A stretch of 64,000 bases of DNA from Escherichia phage DaisyDussoix. Positions 29,139-47,504 of this stretch are shown here, piece after piece. Below the pieces are notes generated by a model, which saw nothing but the letters and a program-made list of their open reading frames with translations, was not told the origin of the DNA and made no database searches. The stretch's first letter is position 1, and each line of letters begins with the position of its first letter. The stretch lies in sequence record MZ501058. One strand, written 5' to 3'. Both the position numbers and the translations under genes were made by a program.

Positions 29139-29977
29139 TGCAACAATACTTAAAAATTTTGACAGATGTAATTTTACTAGGTGAACCCCGTAATGACCGT
29201 ACAGGAACAGGCACAGTTTCAATTTTTGATTCCTATGCTAAGTTCGACCTACGTGAAGGATTCCCGGCTGTAACTACTAAACGCCTGGCCTGGAAATCAG
29301 TAGTAGGAGAACTTTTGTGGTTCTTGTCTGGTTCCACAAATCTTCATGATCTACGTGTATTCACATTTGGTCGTGACGAAGGACAGTGGACCATCTGGAC
29401 TCCAAATTATGAAGACCAAGCTATAAGTATGGGGTATGATAAGGGTAATCTAGGACCAGTATATGGTAAACAGTGGCGTAACTTTGGTGGGCGAGATCAG
29501 ATCCTAGAACTTATTGAAGGAATCAAGAATAATCCTCATGGCCGCAGACATCTAGTTTCTGCGTGGAACGTAGCTGAACTTGATAAAATGGCATTACCAC
29601 CCTGTCATTATGGTTTTCAGTGTTACGTAAGTAATGATGGATACCTAGATCTTAAATGGACACAACGCTCTGTGGATTGTTTCCTCGGTTTACCTTTCAA
29701 TATTGCTAGTTATGCTTTATTAACGCATATATTAGCAAAACTGACAGGATTAAAACCTCGTTATCTTATCTTTAGTGGTGGTGATACTCATATCTATAAT
29801 GACCACATGGAACAGGTAGAAGAACAGGTAAAACGCAAGCCACGCCCTCTGCCAACTCTAGTAATGCCAGAGTTTGTAGATCTTTACGATTTATTAGAAA
29901 ATAATACAGCAGCTTGGTCGTTCCATTTAGAGGGGTACGATCCTCATCCAGCTCTTAAAGCTAAAATGTCCTCTTAA
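29138..29977 (+). CDS. thyA: thymidylate synthase
   Basis: PPCHYGFQCYV active-site motif. Confidence 0.9.
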   Translation: MQQYLKILTDVILLGEPRNDRTGTGTVSIFDSYAKFDLREGFPAVTTKRLAWKSVVGELLWFLSGSTNLHDLRVFTFGRDEGQWTIWTPNYEDQAISMGYDKGNLGPVYGKQWRNFGGRDQILELIEGIKNNPHGRRHLVSAWNVAELDKMALPPCHYGFQCYVSNDGYLDLKWTQRSVDCFLGLPFNIASYALLTHILAKLTGLKPRYLIFSGGDTHIYNDHMEQVEEQVKRKPRPLPTLVMPEFVDLYDLLENNTAAWSFHLEGYDPHPALKAKMSS

Positions 29978-29982
29978 CTTAA

Positions 29983-30008
29983 ATAGCCCTTCGGGGCTAT
30001 TATATTTA
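29983..30008 (+). terminator. intrinsic terminator (UUCG tetraloop)
   Basis: UAGCCC-UUCG-GGGCUA + UUAUAUUU. Confidence 0.55.
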
Positions 30009-30050
30009 AAATTTCATTTGCTTATTTAGTGAAATTTTAAATATAATATA
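30008..30050 (+). promoter_or_regulatory. T5-type sigma70 promoter
   Basis: AAAATTTCATTTGCTT-N18-TATAAT. Confidence 0.5.
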
Positions 30051-30078
30051 CTAAATCAACCAATATGGACAAACAAGA

Positions 30079-30465
30079 ATGAGCAAAGATATAGAATTAG
30101 AACACGCCCTGCATAATTATACCTCTTACTTGGAGGGTAATGAAGTAAAAGAATTAACTAAGGAACAAATCCTACTAATTCTAGATTCTCTAGTTTTAAA
30201 GTTTAAAAAACTAGAGGAATACTACTCCGTAGGTAATGGGGATGAAAGAGTAGAACTATCTCTAAGTCTTCTAGAAGACATGGGGTGGGATGAAGATGAC
30301 CAAGTAGGGTACTTGGGGATTTCTGTAGAAATCTTAGAAAACACAGAACATGAAGATATTTTAGAAGTGAAAAGTAGAACAGCTATTCGTTATGGTACTT
30401 ATGGAAGTGGAATAACTGGATTAAAAGCGCTTCTTAGTATGGATCTAGGGTGGTTGGATGAGTAA
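30079..30465 (+). CDS. hypothetical acidic protein
   Basis: ORF track 128 aa. Confidence 0.45.
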   Translation: MSKDIELEHALHNYTSYLEGNEVKELTKEQILLILDSLVLKFKKLEEYYSVGNGDERVELSLSLLEDMGWDEDDQVGYLGISVEILENTEHEDILEVKSRTAIRYGTYGSGITGLKALLSMDLGWLDE

Positions 30466-31003
30466 ACAACCGACACTAGAGAGATTAAAAGAACTTCTAA
30501 ATTATGATCCTGATACCGGAATATTTACTAATAAAATAAGTAGAGGTAAGGGAGGTAAAGCCGGAGCAGTTGCTGGTTATTTAAGAAAAGATGGTTATAT
30601 AACTATAAAAATAGATAAAGTAGATTATCTAGCCCATAGACTGGCATTCCTGTATATGACAGGGAGTATTCCTGACTTAGTAGATCATATAAATCGTATA
30701 CGGTCAGATAATAGATGGAAAAATTTAAGAGAATCTACTAGTCAAATTAATAATAGAAACTGCACTGCCTCTAGCAAATCAGGGTACTTAGGGGTACATT
30801 GGAATAAGCAACTACAAAAGTGGCAAGTACAGATAATAAACTGTGAGGGTAAGAATATTTATGGTGGAATATTCGAATATCTAGACTTAGAGAACGCCGT
30901 ATTAAAAGCAAATATCTTGAGACACGAGTTACATGGTAAAGATGCTGTAGAAGAAATATTTTATAATAACTATTATCCCACATTAGAGGAACTTAATAGA
31001 TGA
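30458..31003 (+). CDS. HNH homing endonuclease (AP2-domain type)
   Basis: 181 aa; YLAHRLAFLYMTG...VDHINRIRSDNRWKNL. Confidence 0.8.
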   Translation: MSKQPTLERLKELLNYDPDTGIFTNKISRGKGGKAGAVAGYLRKDGYITIKIDKVDYLAHRLAFLYMTGSIPDLVDHINRIRSDNRWKNLRESTSQINNRNCTASSKSGYLGVHWNKQLQKWQVQIINCEGKNIYGGIFEYLDLENAVLKANILRHELHGKDAVEEIFYNNYYPTLEELNR

Positions 31004-31476
31004 GTACATTTCATATATACACAGATGGTGCTTGTAAGTCTAATCCAGGTCCAGGTGCTTGGGGTTTTATTGTCTATGATGATAACAACGATCGTTTAGG
31101 TTCTAAATCTGGTTATAATCCTAAAACCACAAATAACGAGATGGAACTCACAGCTATTGTAGAAGCTCTACGTTGGTCCGTTAAAAAAGATAATAGACCA
31201 ATTGCTATCTATACTGACTCTGCTTATTGCAAAAATGGCATGGAAAGTTGGATGTTTTCTTGGCAAAGGAAAGGCTGGAAGAAAGCAGATGGTGAAGTTC
31301 CTCTTAATCTAGAACTTTGGCAGGAAGCATTTAAATTAACACAGCAGTATATCAACTTTCATAATACTAACCCTACCTTTATTAAGGTTAAAGGACATTC
31401 TGGTATTAGTGGTAATGAAGCTGTAGATGCACTATGTAATACAGTTATTACTGAGCAAGAACTTGCTGAGATGTGA
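31000..31476 (+). CDS. rnh: ribonuclease H
   Basis: YTDGACKSNPGPGAWG, ELTAIVEAL, YTDSAY, VKGHSGISGNEAVDALC motifs. Confidence 0.8.
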   Translation: MSTFHIYTDGACKSNPGPGAWGFIVYDDNNDRLGSKSGYNPKTTNNEMELTAIVEALRWSVKKDNRPIAIYTDSAYCKNGMESWMFSWQRKGWKKADGEVPLNLELWQEAFKLTQQYINFHNTNPTFIKVKGHSGISGNEAVDALCNTVITEQELAEM

Positions 31477-31486
31477 TAAATAAATT

Positions 31487-31530
31487 AAAAATTTTCTTGC
31501 TTAAAGCCCCCTAATTTAGTATAATATTCG
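31487..31530 (+). promoter_or_regulatory. T5-type sigma70 promoter
   Basis: AAAAATTTTCTTGCTT-N17-TATAAT. Confidence 0.55.
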
Positions 31531-31552
31531 TATTGAAAGTGAGGAGGGCTTT

Positions 31553-31831
31553 ATGCGAATTTACAACTCAAATTCATTAGGATTTAAACCTTTGAGAAAA
31601 CTCGCACAACCTCCGCGTCAGATCAGAAAGGCAAATATTGGTGAGCCAGAAACTAGGCTTCCACCACCTCCGGAGCAACGTCTAGTTTACCTAGACGAAG
31701 AATTAGCCGAAAGGGAACGCAAAGCTCAAGAAGAAATTGAGCGCAAGAAACTGTGTACTGCTCCAGCGTATAATAAAGGAGCGTATCAATATGTCTCAGA
31801 TGCCGAACAAGCTAAGATGGTTGGTAGATAA
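31553..31831 (+). CDS. hypothetical protein
   Basis: GAGGAGGG RBS; 92 aa. Confidence 0.45.
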   Translation: MRIYNSNSLGFKPLRKLAQPPRQIRKANIGEPETRLPPPPEQRLVYLDEELAERERKAQEEIERKKLCTAPAYNKGAYQYVSDAEQAKMVGR

Positions 31832-31837
31832 TTTTTA

Positions 31838-31880
31838 AAAAATTCATTTGCTAAACGCTTCAAATTCTCGTATAATATAC
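31838..31880 (+). promoter_or_regulatory. T5-type sigma70 promoter
   Basis: AAAAATTCATTTGCTA-N17-TATAAT. Confidence 0.6.
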
Positions 31881-31914
31881 TTCATAAATTGATAAACAAA
31901 AAGGAAAACAAATA

Positions 31915-32430
31915 ATGGCTAAGCAGAAAAACGCAAAAACTCAAGCAGCTCCGGCAGTTAAAACTTTCCCGCAGACCGAGGCTAATCGCAAAGCTCGTCT
32001 GGAACGCCACCTGCGTAAGCATCCTACCGATGCTCAGGCTGCGCAAGCACTGAATAATCCGGCTCCGATTCGTAAGAAGCCTAAAGCTAAAAATGCCACC
32101 CGTAAATCCTACAAAATGGTTATGTATGTAGAAAATTACGGCCACAAATCTGTCCCAGTTTCCATGAGCTTCAACGCTGGGGCTGAATTATTCTCTCGTA
32201 ATGGTATGTCTATGAAAGACTATGAGAAGGCAGTTAACCAGAAGCGTAAACCAACAGCAGATGTATTGCGTGATACTCGTGGACAGTTTGGTTCTGTTAA
32301 GCCAAATATCTTTGGCGTAGAGTATAGTAAAGATAATGTTCGTGCTCTGTGTTACGGTGTAGGCATTAAGTTCACGGGTGATTCTGCTCGTAAATCTGCT
32401 AAACCAGCTCGCAAGCGTAAAGCGAAGTAA
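31915..32430 (+). CDS. hypothetical basic protein
   Basis: 171 aa, Lys/Arg-rich termini. Confidence 0.5.
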   Translation: MAKQKNAKTQAAPAVKTFPQTEANRKARLERHLRKHPTDAQAAQALNNPAPIRKKPKAKNATRKSYKMVMYVENYGHKSVPVSMSFNAGAELFSRNGMSMKDYEKAVNQKRKPTADVLRDTRGQFGSVKPNIFGVEYSKDNVRALCYGVGIKFTGDSARKSAKPARKRKAK

Positions 32431-32437
32431 TAGATAA

Positions 32438-32456
32438 ATAGGGGCAGAAGCCCCTA
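32438..32456 (+). other. stable GC hairpin (GGGGC-AGAA-GCCCC), weak terminator or processing site
   Basis: hairpin without clear U-tract. Confidence 0.35.
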
Positions 32457-34662: not shown

Positions 34663-35035
34663 TAATTTAAAAGCTAGTAAATCGGTAGACGAAAGCCCAA
34701 GCATCTTACCTCGCAGCAGCGGTTGAAATACGAGGTTAAATAAGACCGCTGACCATACTATAAAGTATAATCTATTGGAGATTATGTTTATTACATCAGA
34801 CATTTAATCTGACACGTAAAAACAAAAGGTCGTTGGTAGTACCAACACAACTTCAAAGATCAACGCTCAAGTATGAAAGCTGAAAAGTTAAAAGCACTCA
34901 AACTTCTAACCTTCTAAAGCTAAAAGATGCAAAGTATTCGTTGATGATTCAAACCCTAGATCAAAGGTACATGGCTCATAAGATATGGCCTGTGGCGCCT
35001 CTAGGCTGTTTATCGGTTTACTAGTCTCTCAATTT

Positions 35036-35078
35036 AAAAATGTATTTGCTAATTAGTTTAGTTTTCTATATAATATAT
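35036..35078 (+). promoter_or_regulatory. T5-type sigma70 promoter
   Basis: AAAAATGTATTTGCTA-N17-TATAAT. Confidence 0.55.
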
Positions 35079-35104
35079 TTTTAAATTGATGAGACGAGGC
35101 TATT

Positions 35105-36600: not shown

Positions 36601-37454
36601 CATAAATTAGAGAACAGCGAGCCGATTACGCTGAGTGAGTTTAGTGATTCCTAATAGGATAGCTATCCCACTGAATAGAGTCGGTGAGTTGGAGACTAGT
36701 AAGTACTCTTAGAGAGGCTACGAGCTAACGCTTATTGCTATTGATAGGGAACTGAAAATCTGCGGAAAACTCGGGAGCTGTCCCGAAATCTCGTAAACTC
36801 TTCTCTAGTTTATGTTAGTGGGGTGTCGAACTGACTTATGTGATAACACTGCCGTCCTAGTATAAACGGTAATATCAAACCGTAACTGGTGGAAGATGCA
36901 GGTTCGAATCCTGCGGTCGGAAAGAATCAGATAACTCGGGCTTATACCGGATAAGCATTCGCTGCTGTAGTACATACTATGACGGTTCAGGAGGTACGCC
37001 GCCTGATCAGTATTAGGTTAGAATCGAAACAGCTAAACCACGAGGAAACCTGACGGCCTCAATCAAACTCGGAACTCGGGATCACTGCCTAGTGTGTGCC
37101 CCGTTTAACCTGAGACTAGGCATCCAGCTTCGCATCGAAAATCGGAGGTGCGATTCTAACAGACCGCGTGAATATGAGAGTGGGAAATGCTGACATGAGA
37201 GATGTCACTAATGGTGCCCAATAGTACAGGTAATTCGCGATAATTCCTGTTGAGCGGCAGCAGTAGGCTGGGAGTCATGACCTAAGCCTAACCGAGTTCT
37301 TCACATACGGAGAACATAACCACAAAGTCACCCTGACTTAAACTGGAGGATATTATCTGACGGAAGGGCTGCAGAGCTTAATCTGAGGGGGCTGACCCTA
37401 CCTACCGTCGGGTATCTTTAAGAGCTTTTATAAGAGTTCTTAAAAATACCTAAA
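36601..37454 (+). ncRNA. candidate structured ncRNA / degenerate tRNA region (no ORF of 60 aa or more on either strand)
   Basis: 850 bp ORF-free directly after a strong promoter; tRNA T-arm copy at 36898-36914 without matching acceptor stem. Confidence 0.3.
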
Positions 37455-39437: not shown

Positions 39438-39444
39438 AATTCTG

Positions 39445-39521
39445 GTTCTCAAGCTCATATGGTATGAGCACCCAGCTCATAACTGGAAGGTACGTAGGTT
39501 CGAATCCTCGGGGAGCCACCA
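39445..39521 (+). tRNA. tRNA with CAU anticodon (Met or Ile-lysidine)
   Basis: acceptor GGUUCUC/GGGAGCC, anticodon loop CUCAUAA; T-stem imperfect. Confidence 0.5.
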
Positions 39522-40877: not shown

Positions 40878-40920
40878 AAAATTTGACTTGCTCAGTGCCT
40901 TAAAACTTGGTATAATAGTT
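40878..40920 (+). promoter_or_regulatory. T5-type sigma70 promoter for tRNA operon
   Basis: TTGACTTGCTC-N17-TATAAT. Confidence 0.5.
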
Positions 40921-40932
40921 ATCTAATTTGGA

Positions 40933-40982
40933 AACATATTTAAAAGTGTTTAAACTAGTATTTTAGTACTTTTAAATATGTT
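40933..40982 (+). repeat. 15-bp perfect inverted repeat with 20-nt spacer between promoter and tRNA-Tyr
   Basis: AACATATTTAAAAGT ... ACTTTTAAATATGTT. Confidence 0.6.
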
Positions 40983-41059
40983 GGATTAGTATCGTAGAGG
41001 TAGCGAAGCAGACTGTAAATCTGCCGACTCGGGTGGTTCGACTCCATCATCCAACACCA
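40980..41059 (+). tRNA. tRNA-Tyr (anticodon GUA)
   Basis: acceptor GUUGGAU/AUCCAAC, anticodon stem GCAGA/UCUGC loop CUGUAAA, CCA. Confidence 0.55.
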
Positions 41060-43089: not shown

Positions 43090-43460
43090 ATTTCAGTGCA
43101 GAACACGGAGCTAGCAATTAGGAAGTGCTGACTCATGATAAGCTGCCTATGTACTTGCAAAGCGGTCGTGTCCAAGACTCGGACTCTTGCACTGAAAACA
43201 ATCAAACATTCTAGCGTGGTTGATGGGGAAACCAGCTTGGCTAGGGCAGAAGCTCGTTCGATTCGAGTGAAAGAATGGTTCTCGTAAGTCCGCACAAGTG
43301 ATAATAGGTTCGAGTCCTGTCTAGAATGACACTATAAAGTTTACTTATTATGTAGGTTCCGATAGATCGGAGGGTCTATTCTGGCATTTAAGAGAGGTCT
43401 CGCAAACGTCTTTGTCAGCCGTGGGGTTGGTAGCCTCCAGGTGGCCTACACAATAAGTAA
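43090..43460 (+). ncRNA. candidate structured stable RNAs (ORF-free), including a 121-nt tRNA-like element 43208..43328
   Basis: long-range stems UUCAGUGCA/UGCACUGAA (43092-43100 / 43188-43196) and AUUCUAG/CUAGAAU closing a T-arm (AUAGG-UUCGAGU-CCUGU). Confidence 0.35.
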
Positions 43461-43467
43461 ATTTATT

Positions 43468-44540: not shown

Positions 44541-44614
44541 GCTCGGTTAGTTTAATGGGAGAACCCCGTCTTTACACGGCGGTTGAGATAGTTCAATTCT
44601 ATCACCGAGTACCA
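44541..44614 (+). tRNA. tRNA-Val (anticodon UAC)
   Basis: acceptor GCUCGGU/ACCGAGU, anticodon stem CCGUC/GGCGG loop UUUACAC, T-arm GAUAG-UUCAAUU-CUAUC, CCA. Confidence 0.6.
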
Positions 44615-44633
44615 ATTAACTCAAAATAAGGAA

Positions 44634-44993
44634 TTGCAAATGCAATTATCAAGCAAGATTCAAGGTTATTTCGGTCATGTAACAATGGAGTTCGCTATCT
44701 CTAAAGGTTGGGACTTCGAACAAGATTTAGCTGAGTTCTACAAAGATATTGATCTGAACGTACCATACATGGGACTTTCTACTGGTCAGGAGATCACAGA
44801 AGCCGATGTATTCAAGGCAAGTCAAGGTGAGGTAACACCTAGTTTTGCCGAGTTCTGGTTAGGCATTACGTTAAAAGAAGATGCACCAGATAGTGGTGTA
44901 CTAATGTCTAGTATGCACTCTGGAAGTTCCGATTACCTTTTCATTAGCGATGTTAAGGAAATACAAGAAGTCTGCAAAAATGTACTTGCTTGA
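44634..44993 (+). CDS. hypothetical protein
   Basis: ORF track 119 aa; next promoter sits in its 3' end. Confidence 0.45.
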   Translation: MQMQLSSKIQGYFGHVTMEFAISKGWDFEQDLAEFYKDIDLNVPYMGLSTGQEITEADVFKASQGEVTPSFAEFWLGITLKEDAPDSGVLMSSMHSGSSDYLFISDVKEIQEVCKNVLA

Positions 44994-45018
44994 TGCTTAA
45001 TTTCTTGTTATAATATTT
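44976..45018 (+). promoter_or_regulatory. T5-type sigma70 promoter
   Basis: AAAAATGTACTTGCTT-N17-TATAAT. Confidence 0.55.
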
Positions 45019-45029
45019 ATATAAATTGA

Positions 45030-45252
45030 TGGGGAGAAATCCTCATCATAGTTCACTAAGGTATTAGCTCGACCTAGGACTGGCTGCCAAAAAGCACGAT
45101 CCCTACAATTCGGGAGAAGTTCTAGATTAGTCCACTAGATTCAGCGGCAACTGAATAGTGTATCGGGTTTGCGAGATGACGCAGTTCCTTCCGCTCGAAG
45201 CGAAGGTGCTGTAGTTACGCCGAGCTAATAGCCTTAGTAAACTAAATAATTT
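45030..45252 (+). ncRNA. candidate structured leader / small RNA (ORF-free, hairpin-rich) ahead of tRNA-Ala
   Basis: hairpins GAUGGGG..CCUCAUC, UUCAG..CUGAA, CCUUCCGCUCGAAGCGAAGG. Confidence 0.25.
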
Positions 45253-45327
45253 GGGCGAATAGTGTCAGCGGGAGCACACCAGACTTGCAATCTGGTAGGG
45301 AGGGTTCGAGTCCCTCTTTGTCCACCA
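45253..45327 (+). tRNA. tRNA-Ala (anticodon UGC)
   Basis: acceptor GGGCGAA/UUUGUCC (G-U pairs), anticodon stem CCAGA/UCUGG loop CUUGCAA, T-arm GAGGG-UUCGAGU-CCCUC, CCA. Confidence 0.65.
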
Positions 45328-45332
45328 AATTC

Positions 45333-45417
45333 GGGGCTATGCTGGAACTGGTAGACAATACGGCCTTAGATTCCGTAGCTTAAATGCGTGGGAGTTCGAG
45401 TCTCCCTAGCCCCACCA
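45333..45417 (+). tRNA. tRNA-Leu (anticodon UAG), type II
   Basis: acceptor GGGGCUA/UAGCCCC perfect, loop CUUAGAU, long variable arm, T-arm GGGAG-UUCGAGU-CUCCC, CCA. Confidence 0.6.
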
Positions 45418-45434
45418 ACTCATAGGATTTATGT

Positions 45435-46019
45435 ATGCAGTTTGTACCAATAAAAGATGCACCAGGGTATTTAGTAAATGAGGCGGGGGATGTGTTCTCT
45501 ACATTTACTAATAAAGTTTTATCAAGATATATAGTTGATGGATACCCTGCTGTAAAATTACAGATAAATGGTAAACAAACCTCTGTACTTATACACCGAA
45601 TTATTTCTCATGTATTTGGGGACTTATATAATCTATTTGACCCTGAACTAGAGGTAGATCATAAGGATAGAGATAGACTGAATCTATCTAAAGATAATCT
45701 TCAAGTCCTATCAAAAATAGAACATCAGAGGAAAACTAATAAAGATAATGGGTGGTCTGACAGTAGAGTACCTTGCCCCCTATGTGGGAGTCTAATGCTT
45801 CAGAGATCTGTAACATGTACAAATTGTAAGCCAAAACCTACAGGAAGGTTGATAAAACCAGAATTGTCTTTAGACGACATAACTGAAAAGGTTTTATTAA
45901 TGGGGTGGGTTAAGGCAGCTAAAGAGTTAGAAGTATCAGAGTCCACTTTGCGCAGGAGGTATACTAAACTAACTGGATTAAGCCCAAAAGTATTAACAGA
46001 ACAATGGAAAAGCAAGTAG
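45435..46019 (+). CDS. HNH homing endonuclease (NUMOD4/HNH + HTH type)
   Basis: 194 aa; HRIISHVFG...EVDHKDRDRLNLSKDNL; C-terminal HTH. Confidence 0.75.
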   Translation: MQFVPIKDAPGYLVNEAGDVFSTFTNKVLSRYIVDGYPAVKLQINGKQTSVLIHRIISHVFGDLYNLFDPELEVDHKDRDRLNLSKDNLQVLSKIEHQRKTNKDNGWSDSRVPCPLCGSLMLQRSVTCTNCKPKPTGRLIKPELSLDDITEKVLLMGWVKAAKELEVSESTLRRRYTKLTGLSPKVLTEQWKSK

Positions 46020-46097
46020 ACTGGCGACTAAACCCGATTGGAAAGTGGCTGACTTGTGAAAGCAGGCTTGAGAGTTCGAATCTCTCTTCTTCCGCCA
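46006..46097 (+). tRNA. tRNA-like gene, probably type II (anticodon unresolved)
   Basis: T-arm GAGAG-UUCGAAU-CUCUC, 3' UUCUUCC-G-CCA; 5' strand GGAAAAG pairs 6/7. Confidence 0.35.
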
Positions 46098-46120
46098 AAC
46101 AATAGAAGATAGGACGTAGT

Positions 46121-46195
46121 GGTACGTAACCGGTCTTGAAAACCGGCCCGCTGTAGTGATACGGTGTAAGGGTTCGATCCCCTTACCTACCTCCA
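46121..46195 (+). tRNA. tRNA (anticodon unresolved)
   Basis: acceptor GGUACGU/ACCUACC (6/7), D-stem CCGG/CCGG, T-arm AAGGG-UUCGAUC-CCCUU, CCA. Confidence 0.45.
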
Positions 46196-46561
46196 AATCT
46201 TGAAGTATGCCGAAATCGGTAGACGGGGCTGCCTAAAAGGTTTATAGGGAACATCCACTCCCTACAACATACCTCATAAAGCGGCTGAGATAAATGGTCT
46301 ATCTCGTGAAGGTTCAAGTCCTTCTGCTTCTTGATACATCTATGGCTCAAAGTGTAACGGTGCTATTTGATGCTCTTGGTAAGACTTCCCCGACATGCGT
46401 TCGGGAGTAAGCTGCTAAGACTAGAGTAGAAGAGTTTCTGAGAGCCGCCACAATTGAAAATTCGTACTCGTCTTGAGCTGCGCGCAATAGGAGATAACTT
46501 GATTAGTATTCTAGAACATGCTAATTGAGGAAGGTTTCGCTAACCCTGCGAGTTTTCAATT
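46196..46561 (+). ncRNA. candidate structured RNA region (ORF-free) with 18-bp imperfect inverted repeat
   Basis: IR arms 46447-46464 (GCCACAATTGAAAATTCG) and 46549-46566 (CGAGTTTTCAATTGTGGC); T-arm-like hairpins without acceptor stems. Confidence 0.3.
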
Positions 46562-46638
46562 GTGGCTATATCATAATTGGTTAATGATCCTGATTGTGAA
46601 TCAGGCCTATGTGGATTCGAATTCCACTAGCCACCCCA
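46562..46638 (+). tRNA. tRNA-His (anticodon GUG)
   Basis: acceptor GUGGCUA/UAGCCAC perfect, anticodon stem CCUGA/UCAGG loop UUGUGAA, T-arm GUGGA-UUCGAAU-UCCAC, CCA. Confidence 0.65.
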
Positions 46639-46668
46639 AATTAACTTAACTTAAATAGGAAATAAAAT

Positions 46669-46863
46669 ATGGCTGATTTCTGCAAACAATGCTCCATTGA
46701 TATGTGGGGCAGAGATACTGGTGATCTTTCTGGTTTGATTACAGAAGCTGAGGTCAAAGAAGGTTATGGTGCAGTTGTGATTTGCGAAGGATGCGGAGTT
46801 ATTCGAGTAGATCATGAAGGCAAACGTTTAGAAGAATCTGAGCCAACAACAATTTTTCCGTAG
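46669..46863 (+). CDS. Cys-rich zinc-ribbon-like mini-protein
   Basis: CKQC ... CEGCG; 64 aa. Confidence 0.4.
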   Translation: MADFCKQCSIDMWGRDTGDLSGLITEAEVKEGYGAVVICEGCGVIRVDHEGKRLEESEPTTIFP

Positions 46864-46869
46864 AATAAG

Positions 46870-47451
46870 ATGAAATTAGAGAATTTCAAAGTAATTCCTG
46901 AGTATCCAGAATACTTAATCTCTCCATACGGAGAGGTTTACTCTACCAAGAGTAATAAATTACTTACACATCATTTAGGCAGTGCGGGATACCTGTTTGT
47001 AACGTTCTATGAACAGGGTAAAAATGTTTCTGTTGTACTGCATAGATTATTGGCTAGAGTATTTAAAGATTTACCTTCGCTAGAATCTGAACTAGAGGTG
47101 GATCACAAAGATAGGAATAAATTGAACTTTGCCCTGGATAATCTAGTTGTCATGACCAAGGAAGATCACAGAGTAAAAACTACACTTGAAAGAGGACATA
47201 TAATAGGTGGTAACAAGTGCCCTTATTGTAGTAAACAAATAAATTCTTCAGCTAAAACTTGTTTTGATTGTAAACCTAAGAGTAACCCTGCTATTACAGC
47301 AGAGCAAATAGAATATTGGGTAATAAATTATTCGTGGGTTAAAGCATCAAAAGAGCTGGGACTATCTGATAATGGTCTACGTAAACGTTATAAATCCTTA
47401 ACAGGTAAAGATCCAAAAAGTATTAAGAAGAAGGTTAGCCAAGTCGGTTAA
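46870..47451 (+). CDS. HNH homing endonuclease (NUMOD4/HNH + HTH type)
   Basis: 193 aa; HRLLARVF...EVDHKDRNKLNFALDNL; 3' end overlaps tRNA-Gln start. Confidence 0.75.
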   Translation: MKLENFKVIPEYPEYLISPYGEVYSTKSNKLLTHHLGSAGYLFVTFYEQGKNVSVVLHRLLARVFKDLPSLESELEVDHKDRNKLNFALDNLVVMTKEDHRVKTTLERGHIIGGNKCPYCSKQINSSAKTCFDCKPKSNPAITAEQIEYWVINYSWVKASKELGLSDNGLRKRYKSLTGKDPKSIKKKVSQVG

Positions 47452-47504
47452 GGCTGGGGTCTCTGAAATCCTGATCAGTGGTTCAAATCCACTACTTTCT
47501 GCCA
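47429..47504 (+). tRNA. tRNA-Gln (anticodon CUG)
   Basis: acceptor AGAAGGU/ACUUUCU, loop CUCUGAA, T-arm AGUGG-UUCAAAU-CCACU, CCA. Confidence 0.55.

What the first reader, a model, noticed from the sequence alone, without database searches (positions are those of the whole stretch)
46196..46566. 18-bp inverted repeat pairs the 5' end of tRNA-His with a site 100 nt upstream in an ORF-free structured gap
46447-46464 (GCCACAATTGAAAATTCG) is the reverse complement of 46549-46566 (CGAGTTTTCAATTGTGGC) with one mismatch, and the right arm includes the first five nucleotides of tRNA-His. In the transcript this would sequester the tRNA-His 5' leader and acceptor strand in a long stem. The 365-bp gap also contains T-arm-like hairpins without acceptor stems. 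This could be a processing-control structure or the remnant of a small mobile insertion.
Basis: seen in the sequence. Interest (0 to 1): 0.5.

Follow-up and report, generated by a model that had tools for sequence, protein, structure and literature searches.

The report
Processing stem of phage T5 RNA III
The inverted repeat is real: it is the conserved closing stem of a small RNA gene (RNA III) that is annotated in T5-like phages but has no known function. In the precursor transcript it also pairs the 3' end of neighbouring RNA I with the start of tRNA-His, and it most likely serves as an RNase III cutting site.

Summary
The window is a T5-like phage, 92.5% identical to T5 here. The "ORF-free gap" 46196-46561 holds three genes that T5 GenBank records annotate as stable RNAs of unknown function:
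- RNA1, 46199-46343, tRNA-like
- RNAI, 46344-46450, ending in CCA
- RNAIII, 46455-46560

The 18-nt inverted repeat exists. As RNA it is a 20-bp helix (46447-46466 with 46547-46566). It closes RNAIII and extends outward through a 4-nt spacer and RNAI's 3' GCCA on one strand, and U-1 plus G1-C5 of tRNA-His on the other.

Relatives carry at least five unrelated inserts in the RNAIII slot, yet all keep the helix: 98% of cells paired, compensatory changes at 9 of 20 pairs. Every wobble pairs only on the transcribed strand.

The RNAIII ends annotated in T5 fall symmetrically inside an invariant CAAU|UG palindrome and leave 2-nt 3' overhangs. That is the RNase III signature, and RNA2H shows the same stagger.

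Best reading: a host RNase III site that separates RNAI, RNAIII and tRNA-His in one double cut. Until it is cut, folding energies predict that it sequesters the tRNA-His acceptor strand.

The genes are already known. The slot polymorphism and the RNase III geometry add modest interest.

The parts
46104..46195 (+). tRNA-Ser(UGA), upstream neighbour of the array
   Evidence: ARAGORN; corresponds to T5 tRNAS1.
46199..46343 (+). RNA1: tRNA-like stable RNA. It resembles tRNA-Leu in its D-loop, long variable arm and T arm, but about 48 nt of extended arm replace the anticodon loop.
   Evidence: 83% identical to T5 rna1 over its full length. T5 annotation reads 'tRNA-like stable RNA with unknown functions'. 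RNAalifold gives 37 pairs, 12 with compensatory changes. Not called by ARAGORN or Rfam.
46344..46450 (+). RNAI: 107-nt stable RNA with an acceptor-like terminal stem GGCUC/GAGCC, discriminator G and encoded CCA 3' end
   Evidence: 92% identical to T5 rnaI. The terminal stem changes to GGCCC/GGGCC in Sugarlandvirus K32PH164C1, a compensatory change.
46451..46454 (+). 4-nt spacer CAAU between RNAI and RNAIII. It is part of the helix and of the left CAAUUG palindrome.
   Evidence: T5 annotation mapped onto the window.
46455..46560 (+). RNAIII (type A insert): 106-nt stable RNA, a 12-bp closing stem plus three hairpins
   Evidence: 98% identical to T5 rnaIII. Same coordinates relative to RNAI and tRNA-His in T5, Salmonella phage 5 and DT57C records. 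Fold.
46447..46466 (+). Left strand of the 20-bp precursor helix: RNAI discriminator G + CCA, spacer CAAU, then the first 12 nt of RNAIII
46547..46566 (+). Right strand of the 20-bp precursor helix: the last 14 nt of RNAIII, U-1, and G1-C5 of tRNA-His
46454..46455 (+). Inferred RNase III cut on the left strand (CAAU|UG), giving the 5' end of RNAIII
   Evidence: Annotated T5 RNAIII 5' end mapped to the window; geometry. Cleavage itself is inferred.
46560..46561 (+). Inferred RNase III cut on the right strand (CAAU|UG), giving the 3' end of RNAIII and leaving U-1 on tRNA-His. It is symmetric to the left cut and gives 2-nt 3' overhangs.
   Evidence: Annotated T5 RNAIII 3' end and tRNAH start. Cleavage itself is inferred.
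46562..46638 (+). tRNA-His(GUG). The gene has T, not G, at -1 (46561), and C73.
   Evidence: ARAGORN and Rfam. T5 GenBank annotates the tRNA from the T at -1, 78 nt.

Best explanation
The repeat is the closing stem of the stable-RNA gene RNAIII of a T5-like phage. tRNA-Ser, RNA1, RNAI, RNAIII and tRNA-His are transcribed together on the + strand. In that precursor the stem is a 20-bp helix that runs past the mature ends of RNAIII. Its outer 8 bp are formed by RNAI's 3' GCCA plus the spacer CAAU, paired with the last two nucleotides of RNAIII, U-1 and G1-C5 of tRNA-His. Host RNase III most likely cuts both strands inside the invariant palindrome CAAU|UG. That one double cut would release RNAIII with a 12-bp stem and a 2-nt 3' overhang, RNAI with four extra 3' nucleotides (then trimmed back to CCA by exonucleases), and tRNA-His with a one-nucleotide leader. 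The remaining 6-bp duplex would then melt and the tRNA-His acceptor stem could form. Shown here: the gene identities, the helix, its conservation and covariation, and the position of the annotated ends. Inferred: that RNase III makes the cuts, and the order of events.
For: Identity: 92.5% identity to T5 over 2.1 kb. The T5 features rna1, rnaI, rnaIII and tRNAH map base-for-base onto 46199-46638; Salmonella phage 5 annotates all four the same way, while DT57C annotates rnaI, rnaIII and tRNA-His but lacks RNA1. Helix: eight distinct variants from five unrelated insert types pair in 98.1% of cells. Nine of 20 pairs change on both sides; 0-1 of 500 shuffles reach the observed value on four of five measures (10 of 500 on the fifth), and slid registers pair only 31-48%. 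There are 14 G.U cells and no A.C cells, so the helix is better on the transcribed strand. RNase III geometry: the annotated RNAIII ends sit inside the continuous helix, 8 bp from its base and 12 bp from its top. The 5' end pairs with 3' end minus 2, giving a 2-nt 3' overhang, and both cuts fall at the same place in CAAU|UG. T5 RNA2H shows the same 2-nt stagger inside a long flanking helix; RNAIV shows a 1-nt stagger. Published rules for E. coli RNase III: about two helical turns, 2-nt 3' overhangs, at least 11 bp beyond the cut, and no G-C pair at proximal-box positions 2 and 4 (PMC1540722). Here there are 12 bp beyond the left cut. If the four pairs next to each cut are taken as the proximal box, the pairs at those two positions are U-A/A-U (helix pairs 9 and 11) and A-U/A-U (pairs 6 and 4), invariant in all variants. 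Precedent: E. coli RNase III takes part in maturation of phage T4 tRNAs (PMC4810235). Sequestration: the extended helix beats the cloverleaf by 7.7-9.5 kcal/mol in all variants.
Against: No experiment on RNase III and T5 RNAs was found in the searchable library. The cut sites rest on GenBank feature coordinates whose experimental basis I could not read. The canonical distal-box UA/UG pairs are not evident, and the pair at proximal-box position 3 is G-C rather than the preferred A-U. Five of the outer base pairs involve CCA and a host-like tRNA-His acceptor sequence, which are constrained for other reasons, so their invariance is not independent evidence. Sugarlandvirus K32PH164C1 places RNAI 5 nt from tRNA-His with no helix at all, so the helix is not needed to make either RNA. 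Salmonella phage S124 has only a 14-bp hairpin (18 bp with an internal loop), which may be short for RNase III. The fold energies ignore tRNA tertiary structure.
Confidence: 0.6

Rival explanations
1. The helix is only a stability element. It closes RNAIII and protects its ends from exonucleases. The ends are made by the usual tRNA enzymes: RNase P at the tRNA-His 5' end, RNase E or exonucleases elsewhere. Its extension into RNAI and tRNA-His is a by-product of CCA pairing with the UGG of a host-like tRNA-His acceptor stem.
For: Mature RNAIII keeps a 12-bp closing stem. The 3' end of RNAIII lies one nucleotide from the canonical RNase P site of tRNA-His. Three of the five outermost pairs are CCA with UGG, both constrained independently. 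K32PH164C1 makes do without the helix.
Against: It does not explain why the spacer CAAU, which belongs to no mature RNA, is invariant and fully paired. It does not explain why both annotated ends lie inside continuous duplex at symmetric positions with a 2-nt 3' overhang, or why RNA2H shows the same stagger. RNase P normally needs an unpaired leader and a free 3' end rather than a continuous helix (general knowledge). S124 changes CAAUUG/CAAUUG to CAAUUA/UAAUUG, a compensatory change in the part outside the mature stem.
Confidence: 0.22
2. The helix is a regulatory switch. By sequestering the 5' acceptor strand it delays or tunes tRNA-His maturation, and RNAI 3' end availability, in response to some signal.
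For: The long helix is predicted to win over the cloverleaf by 7.7-9.5 kcal/mol in the precursor. It would form during transcription, before the tRNA 3' strand exists (inference). Leader hairpins that overlap a tRNA 5' end recur: tRNA-Tyr in this window and tRNA-His in Proteus phage Stubb.
Against: No alternative conserved structure, ligand-binding motif or known riboswitch or T-box was found (Rfam). Sequestration follows automatically from any processing stem placed this close. Nothing points to a signal.
Confidence: 0.08
3. The 106-nt segment is a small mobile element of the MITE type, with terminal inverted repeats, that inserted into an AATT or CAATTG target between RNAI and tRNA-His and duplicated it.
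For: Unrelated inserts occupy the same slot, each bounded by CAATTG on both sides and beginning GA... and ending ...TC. Inserts assort independently of the flanking RNA1/RNAI types: CitS1 and mar003J3 combine Eps7-type flanks with a type A insert, and smaug combines T5-type RNA1 with type B. A Sugarlandvirus has RNAI next to tRNA-His with nothing between them.
Against: Every insert type occurs at essentially one place per genome, always at this locus, and only in T5-like phages: 281, 65, 55 and 15 records. No empty site exists among Tequintavirus or Epseptimavirus; the best matches to an artificial empty junction are all split in two. The Sugarlandvirus junction lacks the CAATTG target. All mismatches are G.U on the sense strand, which points to selection on RNA, not on DNA ends. 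Exchange by homologous recombination in the conserved flanks explains the mosaic without transposition.
Confidence: 0.06
4. The repeat acts at the DNA level as a palindromic binding or cleavage site, for example for one of the HNH homing endonucleases encoded nearby or for a recombinase.
For: The outer 14 nt (GCCACAATTG ... CAATTGTGGC) are perfect reverse complements. Two HNH endonuclease genes flank the array, at 45435-46019 and 46870-47451.
Against: The arms lie 42-147 nt apart depending on the insert. The inner arms differ completely in sequence but keep pairing. There are 14 wobble cells and no A.C cells, so complementarity is worse on the other strand and in duplex DNA terms.
Confidence: 0.03

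Closest known systems
Phage T5 stable RNA genes rna1, rnaI and rnaIII (GenBank AY543070, AY692264, NC_005859; also annotated in Salmonella phage 5, AJ604531; DT57C, KM979354, annotates rnaI and rnaIII only)
   Same: Same order (tRNA-Ser1, RNA1, RNAI, 4-nt spacer, RNAIII, tRNA-His) and the same lengths for RNAI, the spacer and RNAIII (RNA1 is 145 nt here against 144 in T5). Identity is 83%, 92% and 98%. The window's genes are orthologues.
   Different: The window lacks the small ORF T5.063 between tRNA-Ser1 and RNA1. The records say only 'stable RNA with unknown functions'. They do not describe the precursor helix, the overlap with tRNA-His, or the alternative inserts in relatives.
RNase III processing in the phage T4 tRNA cluster
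   Same: A phage tRNA cluster that also encodes small stable RNAs of unknown function (PMC2330249), whose tRNA maturation involves host RNase III (PMC4810235 citing McClain 1979). From memory, not verified here: the T4 site is a leader stem just upstream of tRNA-Gln, and species I RNA is cleaved by RNase III in vitro.
   Different: No sequence relationship was tested or is expected. In T4 the site is, as I recall it, a leader hairpin. Here the helix brackets a whole stable RNA and reaches 5 nt into the tRNA and 4 nt into the upstream RNA.
rRNA operon processing stalks and phage T7 R1.1-type RNase III sites
   Same: Pairing between the 5' and 3' flanks of a stable RNA makes a helix of about two turns that RNase III cuts on both strands, leaving 2-nt 3' overhangs (PMC4810235; PMC1540722). 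The length, the stagger, and A/U pairs at proximal-box positions 2 and 4 (as I assigned them) match here.
   Different: The excised RNA is about 100 nt and of unknown function. The distal-box consensus is not evident. Cleavage has not been demonstrated.
Miniature inverted-repeat transposable elements (MITEs)
   Same: A short non-coding segment bounded by inverted repeats and by a repeated CAATTG, with presence or absence and replacement among relatives.
   Different: Single copy, single locus, one phage family. The repeat is selected as RNA pairing. There is no empty site with the same target.

Membership tests
T5 rnaIII (Tequintavirus stable RNA III) | Sequence similarity to the annotated T5 rnaIII over its full length | tested here: met
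   98.1% identity over 106 of 106 nt, window 46455-46560; the alignment has no gaps.
T5 rnaIII (Tequintavirus stable RNA III) | Position: 4 nt after RNAI and immediately before tRNA-His in the tRNA gene region | tested here: met
T5 rnaIII (Tequintavirus stable RNA III) | Accumulates as a stable RNA of about 106 nt in infected cells | not testable with these tools
   Only the GenBank annotation 'stable RNA' is available. The original papers are not in the searchable library.
E. coli RNase III double-strand processing site | Regular helix of about two turns (about 20 bp) | tested here: met
   20 uninterrupted pairs including two G.U pairs. 20-21 bp in insert types A-D, 14 (18) bp in type E. Rule from PMC1540722.
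E. coli RNase III double-strand processing site | Product ends staggered to give 2-nt 3' overhangs | tested here: met
   The annotated T5 RNAIII 5' end pairs with 3' end minus 2. The cuts are symmetric in CAAU|UG. This rests on annotation coordinates, not on data generated here.
E. coli RNase III double-strand processing site | At least 11 bp of helix beyond the scissile bond | tested here: met
   12 bp (helix pairs 9-20) beyond the left-strand cut. Only 6 bp beyond the right-strand cut, unless RNAI's acceptor stem stacks on the helix. Rule.
E. coli RNase III double-strand processing site | No G-C or C-G pair at proximal-box position 2 (binding antideterminant) or position 4 (catalytic antideterminant) | tested here: met
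   Taking the four pairs next to each cut as the proximal box (my assignment): pairs 11 and 9 are A-U and U-A for the left cut; pairs 4 and 6 are A-U and A-U for the right cut. All are invariant in 8 variants. Rule.
E. coli RNase III double-strand processing site | Preferred proximal-box and distal-box sequences (G-C at proximal position 1, A-U at position 3, UA/UG distal box) | tested here: inconclusive
   Position 3 is G-C or C-G and position 1 is A-U or C-G. A conserved U.G lies at helix pair 15, 7 bp from the left cut, but the exact distal-box register could not be fixed from the text.
E. coli RNase III double-strand processing site | Cleavage depends on RNase III (rnc) | not testable with these tools
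   No data found.
MITE-like mobile element | Terminal inverted repeats | tested here: met
MITE-like mobile element | Several copies, or copies at different loci or in different genomes | tested here: not met
   Essentially one place per record, always between RNAI and tRNA-His and only in T5-like genomes, for all four common insert types (283 places in 281 records for type A).
MITE-like mobile element | Empty target site in close relatives, with target duplication at filled sites | tested here: not met
   No contiguous match to an artificial empty junction among 50,697 phage records. The only RNAI-tRNA-His adjacency (Sugarlandvirus) has different junction sequences. The flanking CAATTG copies are part of the RNA helix.
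Canonical tRNA (for RNA1, 46199-46343) | Cloverleaf with a 7-nt anticodon loop, recognised by tRNA models | tested here: not met
   Acceptor, D, variable and T arms are present and covary. About 48 nt replace the anticodon loop, and ARAGORN and Rfam do not call it.

The most novel reading that the evidence does not exclude
The RNAI / tRNA-His junction of T5-like phages is a plug-in slot. One invariant RNase III-cleavable adaptor helix (GCCACAAUUG...CAAUUGUGGC) expresses and releases whichever small structured RNA sits inside it, and at least five unrelated inserts are exchanged among phages. The same cut, rather than RNase P, would set the 5' end of a tRNA-His whose gene lacks the usual G-1, leaving a 5'-phosphorylated U-1. 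The inserts could be payloads in the arms race with host systems that target tRNAs.
Probability: 0.15. Interest if true: 0.6.

Novelty: already known. Interest (0 to 1): 0.3.

Why it matters
The T5 stable RNAs are annotated in GenBank but still carry the label "unknown functions", and no Rfam family covers them. This analysis turns an anonymous-looking structured gap into three named genes and gives a concrete, testable processing model. One symmetric double-strand cut in an invariant palindrome would separate RNAI, RNAIII and tRNA-His.

It also shows that the RNAIII slot is polymorphic across more than 400 sequenced T5-like phages while the adaptor helix is kept. That points to the helix, not any one insert, as the conserved function. 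T5 tRNAs have recently been shown to counter host tRNA-cleaving defences (PMC11464382; PMC10644984), so variable small RNAs embedded in the same cluster are reasonable candidates for similar roles.

For a genome scan, though, the finding is a rediscovery of annotated genes.

Tried and rejected
- **Rfam, all families, permissive threshold.** On the window (36-50 kb) and on seven relatives it found only tRNAs. RNA1, RNAI and the inserts matched nothing.
- **Group I or tRNA intron idea for RNA1.** Dropped. The 48-nt segment forms a covarying extended arm, no anticodon can be reconstructed, and T5 annotates the whole as a stable RNA.
- **Literature searches for the T5 stable RNAs and for RNase III in T5.** None gave a primary source in the library. 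I found only that T5 mutants deleted for this region are viable (PMC11464382) and that RNase III acts in T4 tRNA maturation.
- **Search for an empty site with an artificial RNAI-CAATT-tRNA-His junction.** None among Tequintavirus or Epseptimavirus.
- **Promoter and terminator scan of 44600-47000.** At chance level; the "terminator" hits are the RNA1 T arm and part of RNAIII.
- **Mechanical ORFs in the gap (38-55 aa).** Not conserved as coding in T5 annotation and ignored.
- **Fit to the RNase III distal-box consensus.** Could not be decided from the text available.
- **Recurring CAAU before each mature 5' end as a shared cleavage motif.** Rejected. The RNA1/RNAI junction reads CUAU in the window.

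Full report
**What the window is.** The tRNA scan finds 23 tRNA genes on the + strand between 37.4 and 48.8 kb. The region 45400-47500 is 92.5% identical over its full length to Escherichia phage T5. The window is therefore a T5-like phage (Demerecviridae, Tequintavirus-like), and the finding lies in its tRNA gene region.

**Observation.** The repeat is exactly as described: 46447-46464 and 46549-46566, 18 nt, one mismatch, 84 nt apart.
- In RNA the mismatch is a U.G wobble. With wobbles allowed, the uninterrupted helix is 20 bp, 46447-46466 with 46547-46566.
- The right arm contains nucleotides 1-5 of tRNA-His, which ARAGORN starts at 46562.
- Simulated 64-kb sequences contain such a repeat in 3 of 100 cases.
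- Among 24 tRNAs in the window, only tRNA-His (20 bp) and tRNA-Tyr (18 bp) have an upstream helix longer than 10 bp that reaches into the tRNA.
- The segment 46190-46640 folds better than every shuffle, z = -4.25.

**What the gap contains.** T5 GenBank records annotate this order: tRNA-Ser(UGA), a small ORF (T5.063), rna1 ("tRNA-like stable RNA with unknown functions", 144 nt), rnaI (107 nt), four nucleotides, rnaIII (106 nt), then tRNA-His. Base-for-base mapping gives the following window coordinates:

| Feature | Window coordinates | Identity to T5 |
|---|---|---|
| RNA1 | 46199-46343 | 83% |
| RNAI | 46344-46450 | 92% |
| spacer CAAU | 46451-46454 | |
| RNAIII | 46455-46560 | 98% |
| tRNA-His (annotated from the T at -1) | from 46561 | |

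- The window lacks ORF T5.063.
- Salmonella phage 5 annotates rna1, rnaI and rnaIII with the same relative coordinates; DT57C annotates rnaI and rnaIII the same way but has no RNA1.
- No Rfam family matches any of them.
- RNA1 is a real tRNA-like molecule. It has a 6-bp acceptor stem, of which 5 pairs vary while staying paired (4 with changes on both sides), a D arm whose loop resembles tRNA-Leu, a long variable arm and a T arm. About 48 nt form an extended covarying arm where the anticodon loop should be (37 predicted pairs, 12 with compensatory changes).
- RNAI has an acceptor-like terminal stem GGCUC/GAGCC followed by G and an encoded CCA. The stem becomes GGCCC/GGGCC in a Klebsiella Sugarlandvirus.

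**Anatomy of the helix.** Numbering pairs from the base:
- Left strand: RNAI discriminator G and CCA (pairs 1-4), spacer CAAU (pairs 5-8), then RNAIII nucleotides 1-12 (pairs 9-20).
- Right strand, read 3' to 5': tRNA-His C5 to G1 (pairs 1-5), U-1 (pair 6), then the last 14 nucleotides of RNAIII (pairs 7-20).

The mature RNAIII stem is therefore only the inner 12 bp. The outer 8 bp exist only in the precursor.

**Comparative evidence.** The array is present in several hundred T5-like genomes (566 records match).
- Aligning eight phages showed that RNA1, RNAI and tRNA-His are conserved, but the RNAIII slot holds unrelated sequences.
- With IMG/VR loci and further GenBank records I found five insert types. 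Arm-to-arm lengths are A 120 nt (window, T5), B 77 nt (Eps7), C 135 nt (beppo, polluks), D 147 nt (LVR16A-like, GSW6, Klebsiella phage 150049) and E 42 nt (a bare hairpin, S124 only).
- Their counts in the phage collection are 281, 65, 55, 15 and 2 records. Each occurs at essentially one place per genome, is at least 90-95% identical within its type, and is found only in T5-like genomes.
- All types keep the helix. On the eight distinct arm pairs, 98.1% of cells pair and 9 of 20 pairs show changes on both sides. Between 0 and 1 of 500 shuffles reach the observed values on four of the five measures (10 of 500 on the fifth), and slid registers pair only 31-48%. That arm alignment was built by anchoring on the fixed flanks.
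- Pairs 1-9 and 11 never vary, except for one G.U in smaug and a G-C to A-U double change at pair 10 in S124.
- All 14 non-Watson-Crick pairs are G.U, and no A.C pair occurs. Pairing is therefore selected on the transcribed strand, as RNA.
- Inserts assort independently of the flanks. CitS1 and mar003J3 combine Eps7-type RNA1/RNAI with a type A insert, and smaug combines T5-type RNA1 with type B. This indicates exchange by recombination.
- A Sugarlandvirus, K32PH164C1, has an RNAI homologue followed after 5 nt by tRNA-His, with no insert and no helix.
- No such empty junction exists among Tequintavirus or Epseptimavirus.

**Mechanism.** The annotated RNAIII ends lie inside continuous duplex. 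The 5' end (46455) pairs with 46558, leaving 46559-46560 as a 2-nt 3' overhang. Both strands are "cut" at the same place in the palindrome, CAAU|UG: 46454|46455 and 46560|46561.
- Staggered symmetric cuts with 2-nt 3' overhangs in a helix of about two turns are the hallmark of bacterial RNase III (PMC1540722).
- That paper also requires at least 11 bp beyond the scissile bond and excludes G-C pairs at proximal-box positions 2 and 4. Here 12 bp lie beyond the left cut. Taking the four pairs next to each cut as the proximal box, the pairs at those two positions are A/U on both sides of the dyad and are invariant across insert types.
- The preferred distal-box sequence is not evident, so the sequence fit is partial.
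- Two other T5 stable RNAs behave alike. RNA2H has its annotated ends in a long flanking helix with the same 2-nt stagger, and RNAIV sits in a helix of about 23 bp with a 1-nt stagger. Both have homologues in the window.
- E. coli RNase III is known to take part in maturation of phage T4 tRNAs (PMC4810235).

I therefore propose that host RNase III cuts this helix once on each strand. The cut would release RNAIII, leave RNAI with a 4-nt tail for exonucleolytic trimming to CCA, and leave tRNA-His with a 1-nt leader. This step is inferred, not shown.

**Sequestration.** In nearest-neighbour folding of the RNAI-to-tRNA-His precursor, nucleotides 1-5 of tRNA-His pair with RNAI's GCCAC in all nine variants tested. 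These folds are 7.7-9.5 kcal/mol better than folds in which the cloverleaf is enforced. The helix would also form before the tRNA's own 3' strand is transcribed. I read it as a consequence of a tightly packed processing site rather than as regulation, and tRNA tertiary energy is not modelled.

**Rivals.**
- A pure stability stem with RNase P and exonuclease processing explains the inner 12 bp. It does not explain the invariant paired spacer, the symmetric ends or the RNA2H parallel.
- A mobile element is contradicted by single-copy, single-locus occurrence and by RNA-level selection.
- A DNA palindrome is contradicted by the wobble asymmetry and the variable spacing.
- A regulatory switch has no supporting feature.

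**Known or new.** The genes are known and annotated, and a T5 mutant deleted for 29191-32442, which covers them, is viable (PMC11464382). I rate the finding "already known". I could not find three things described in the records or in the searchable literature: the precursor helix that joins three RNAs, the RNase III-like geometry, and the polymorphic insert slot.

Noticed in passing
window 40884-40982: tRNA-Tyr (40980-41059) follows a sigma-70-like promoter (TTGACT ... TATAAT) and an 18-bp leader hairpin, 40933-40950 with 40965-40982. The hairpin's right arm contains tRNA-Tyr nucleotides 1-3. This is the only other tRNA in the window with a long helix reaching into its 5' end. Three IMG/VR relatives keep it (one wobble becomes a Watson-Crick pair), but Eps7-like phages have a different leader.
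   Followed up: partly
window 46561-46562: The tRNA-His gene has T, not G, at position -1, with C73. Bacterial tRNA-His normally needs an encoded G-1. T5 GenBank annotates the tRNA from this T (78 nt). The same holds in Proteus phage Stubb (T at -1, C73). Klebsiella phage K32PH164C1 also has T at -1 but U73.
   Followed up: partly
L037 1478-1512 (Proteus phage Stubb): A 16-bp hairpin immediately upstream of tRNA-His overlaps the first two tRNA nucleotides. It is an independent example of a leader helix abutting tRNA-His in a distant member of the family.
   Followed up: no
window 46006-46098: Homologue of T5 tRNA-Ser2(GGA). It overlaps the stop codon of the HNH endonuclease ORF 45435-46019 and ends in an encoded CCA. 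Neither ARAGORN nor Rfam calls it here. The anticodon stem is weakened, while the T arm has changed with compensation.
   Followed up: partly
window 43207-43331, 43350-43452, 45062-45233: Homologues of the other T5 stable RNAs: RNA2, RNAIV and RNA2H (95-97% identity). RNAIV and RNA2H are bracketed by long precursor helices, 43337-43360 with 43440-43464 and 45040-45071 with 45221-45258. The annotated ends lie inside these helices.
   Followed up: partly
L033 ~441-570, L035 ~441-558, L039 ~346-467: Phages mar003J3, GSW6 and Klebsiella phage 150049 carry an extra segment of about 120 nt between RNA1 and RNAI. DT57C lacks RNA1 altogether. The whole array is modular, not only the RNAIII slot.
   Followed up: no
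window 45435-46019 and 46870-47451: Two HNH homing-endonuclease ORFs (counterparts of T5 hegC and hegD) flank the array. The second runs into the start of tRNA-Gln(CUG) at 47429, as in T5, where one record flags that tRNA as a pseudogene.
   Followed up: no
window 36851-36922 and 39444-39518: Two further tRNA-like genes reach the Rfam tRNA threshold (29.3 and 38.2 bits) but are not called by ARAGORN. The window also lacks the tRNA-Pro that T5 has next to tRNA-fMet.
   Followed up: no
window 29997-30049 and 35029-35089: Two other 18-nt inverted repeats with at most 1 mismatch, both very AT-rich. They were not examined.
   Followed up: no
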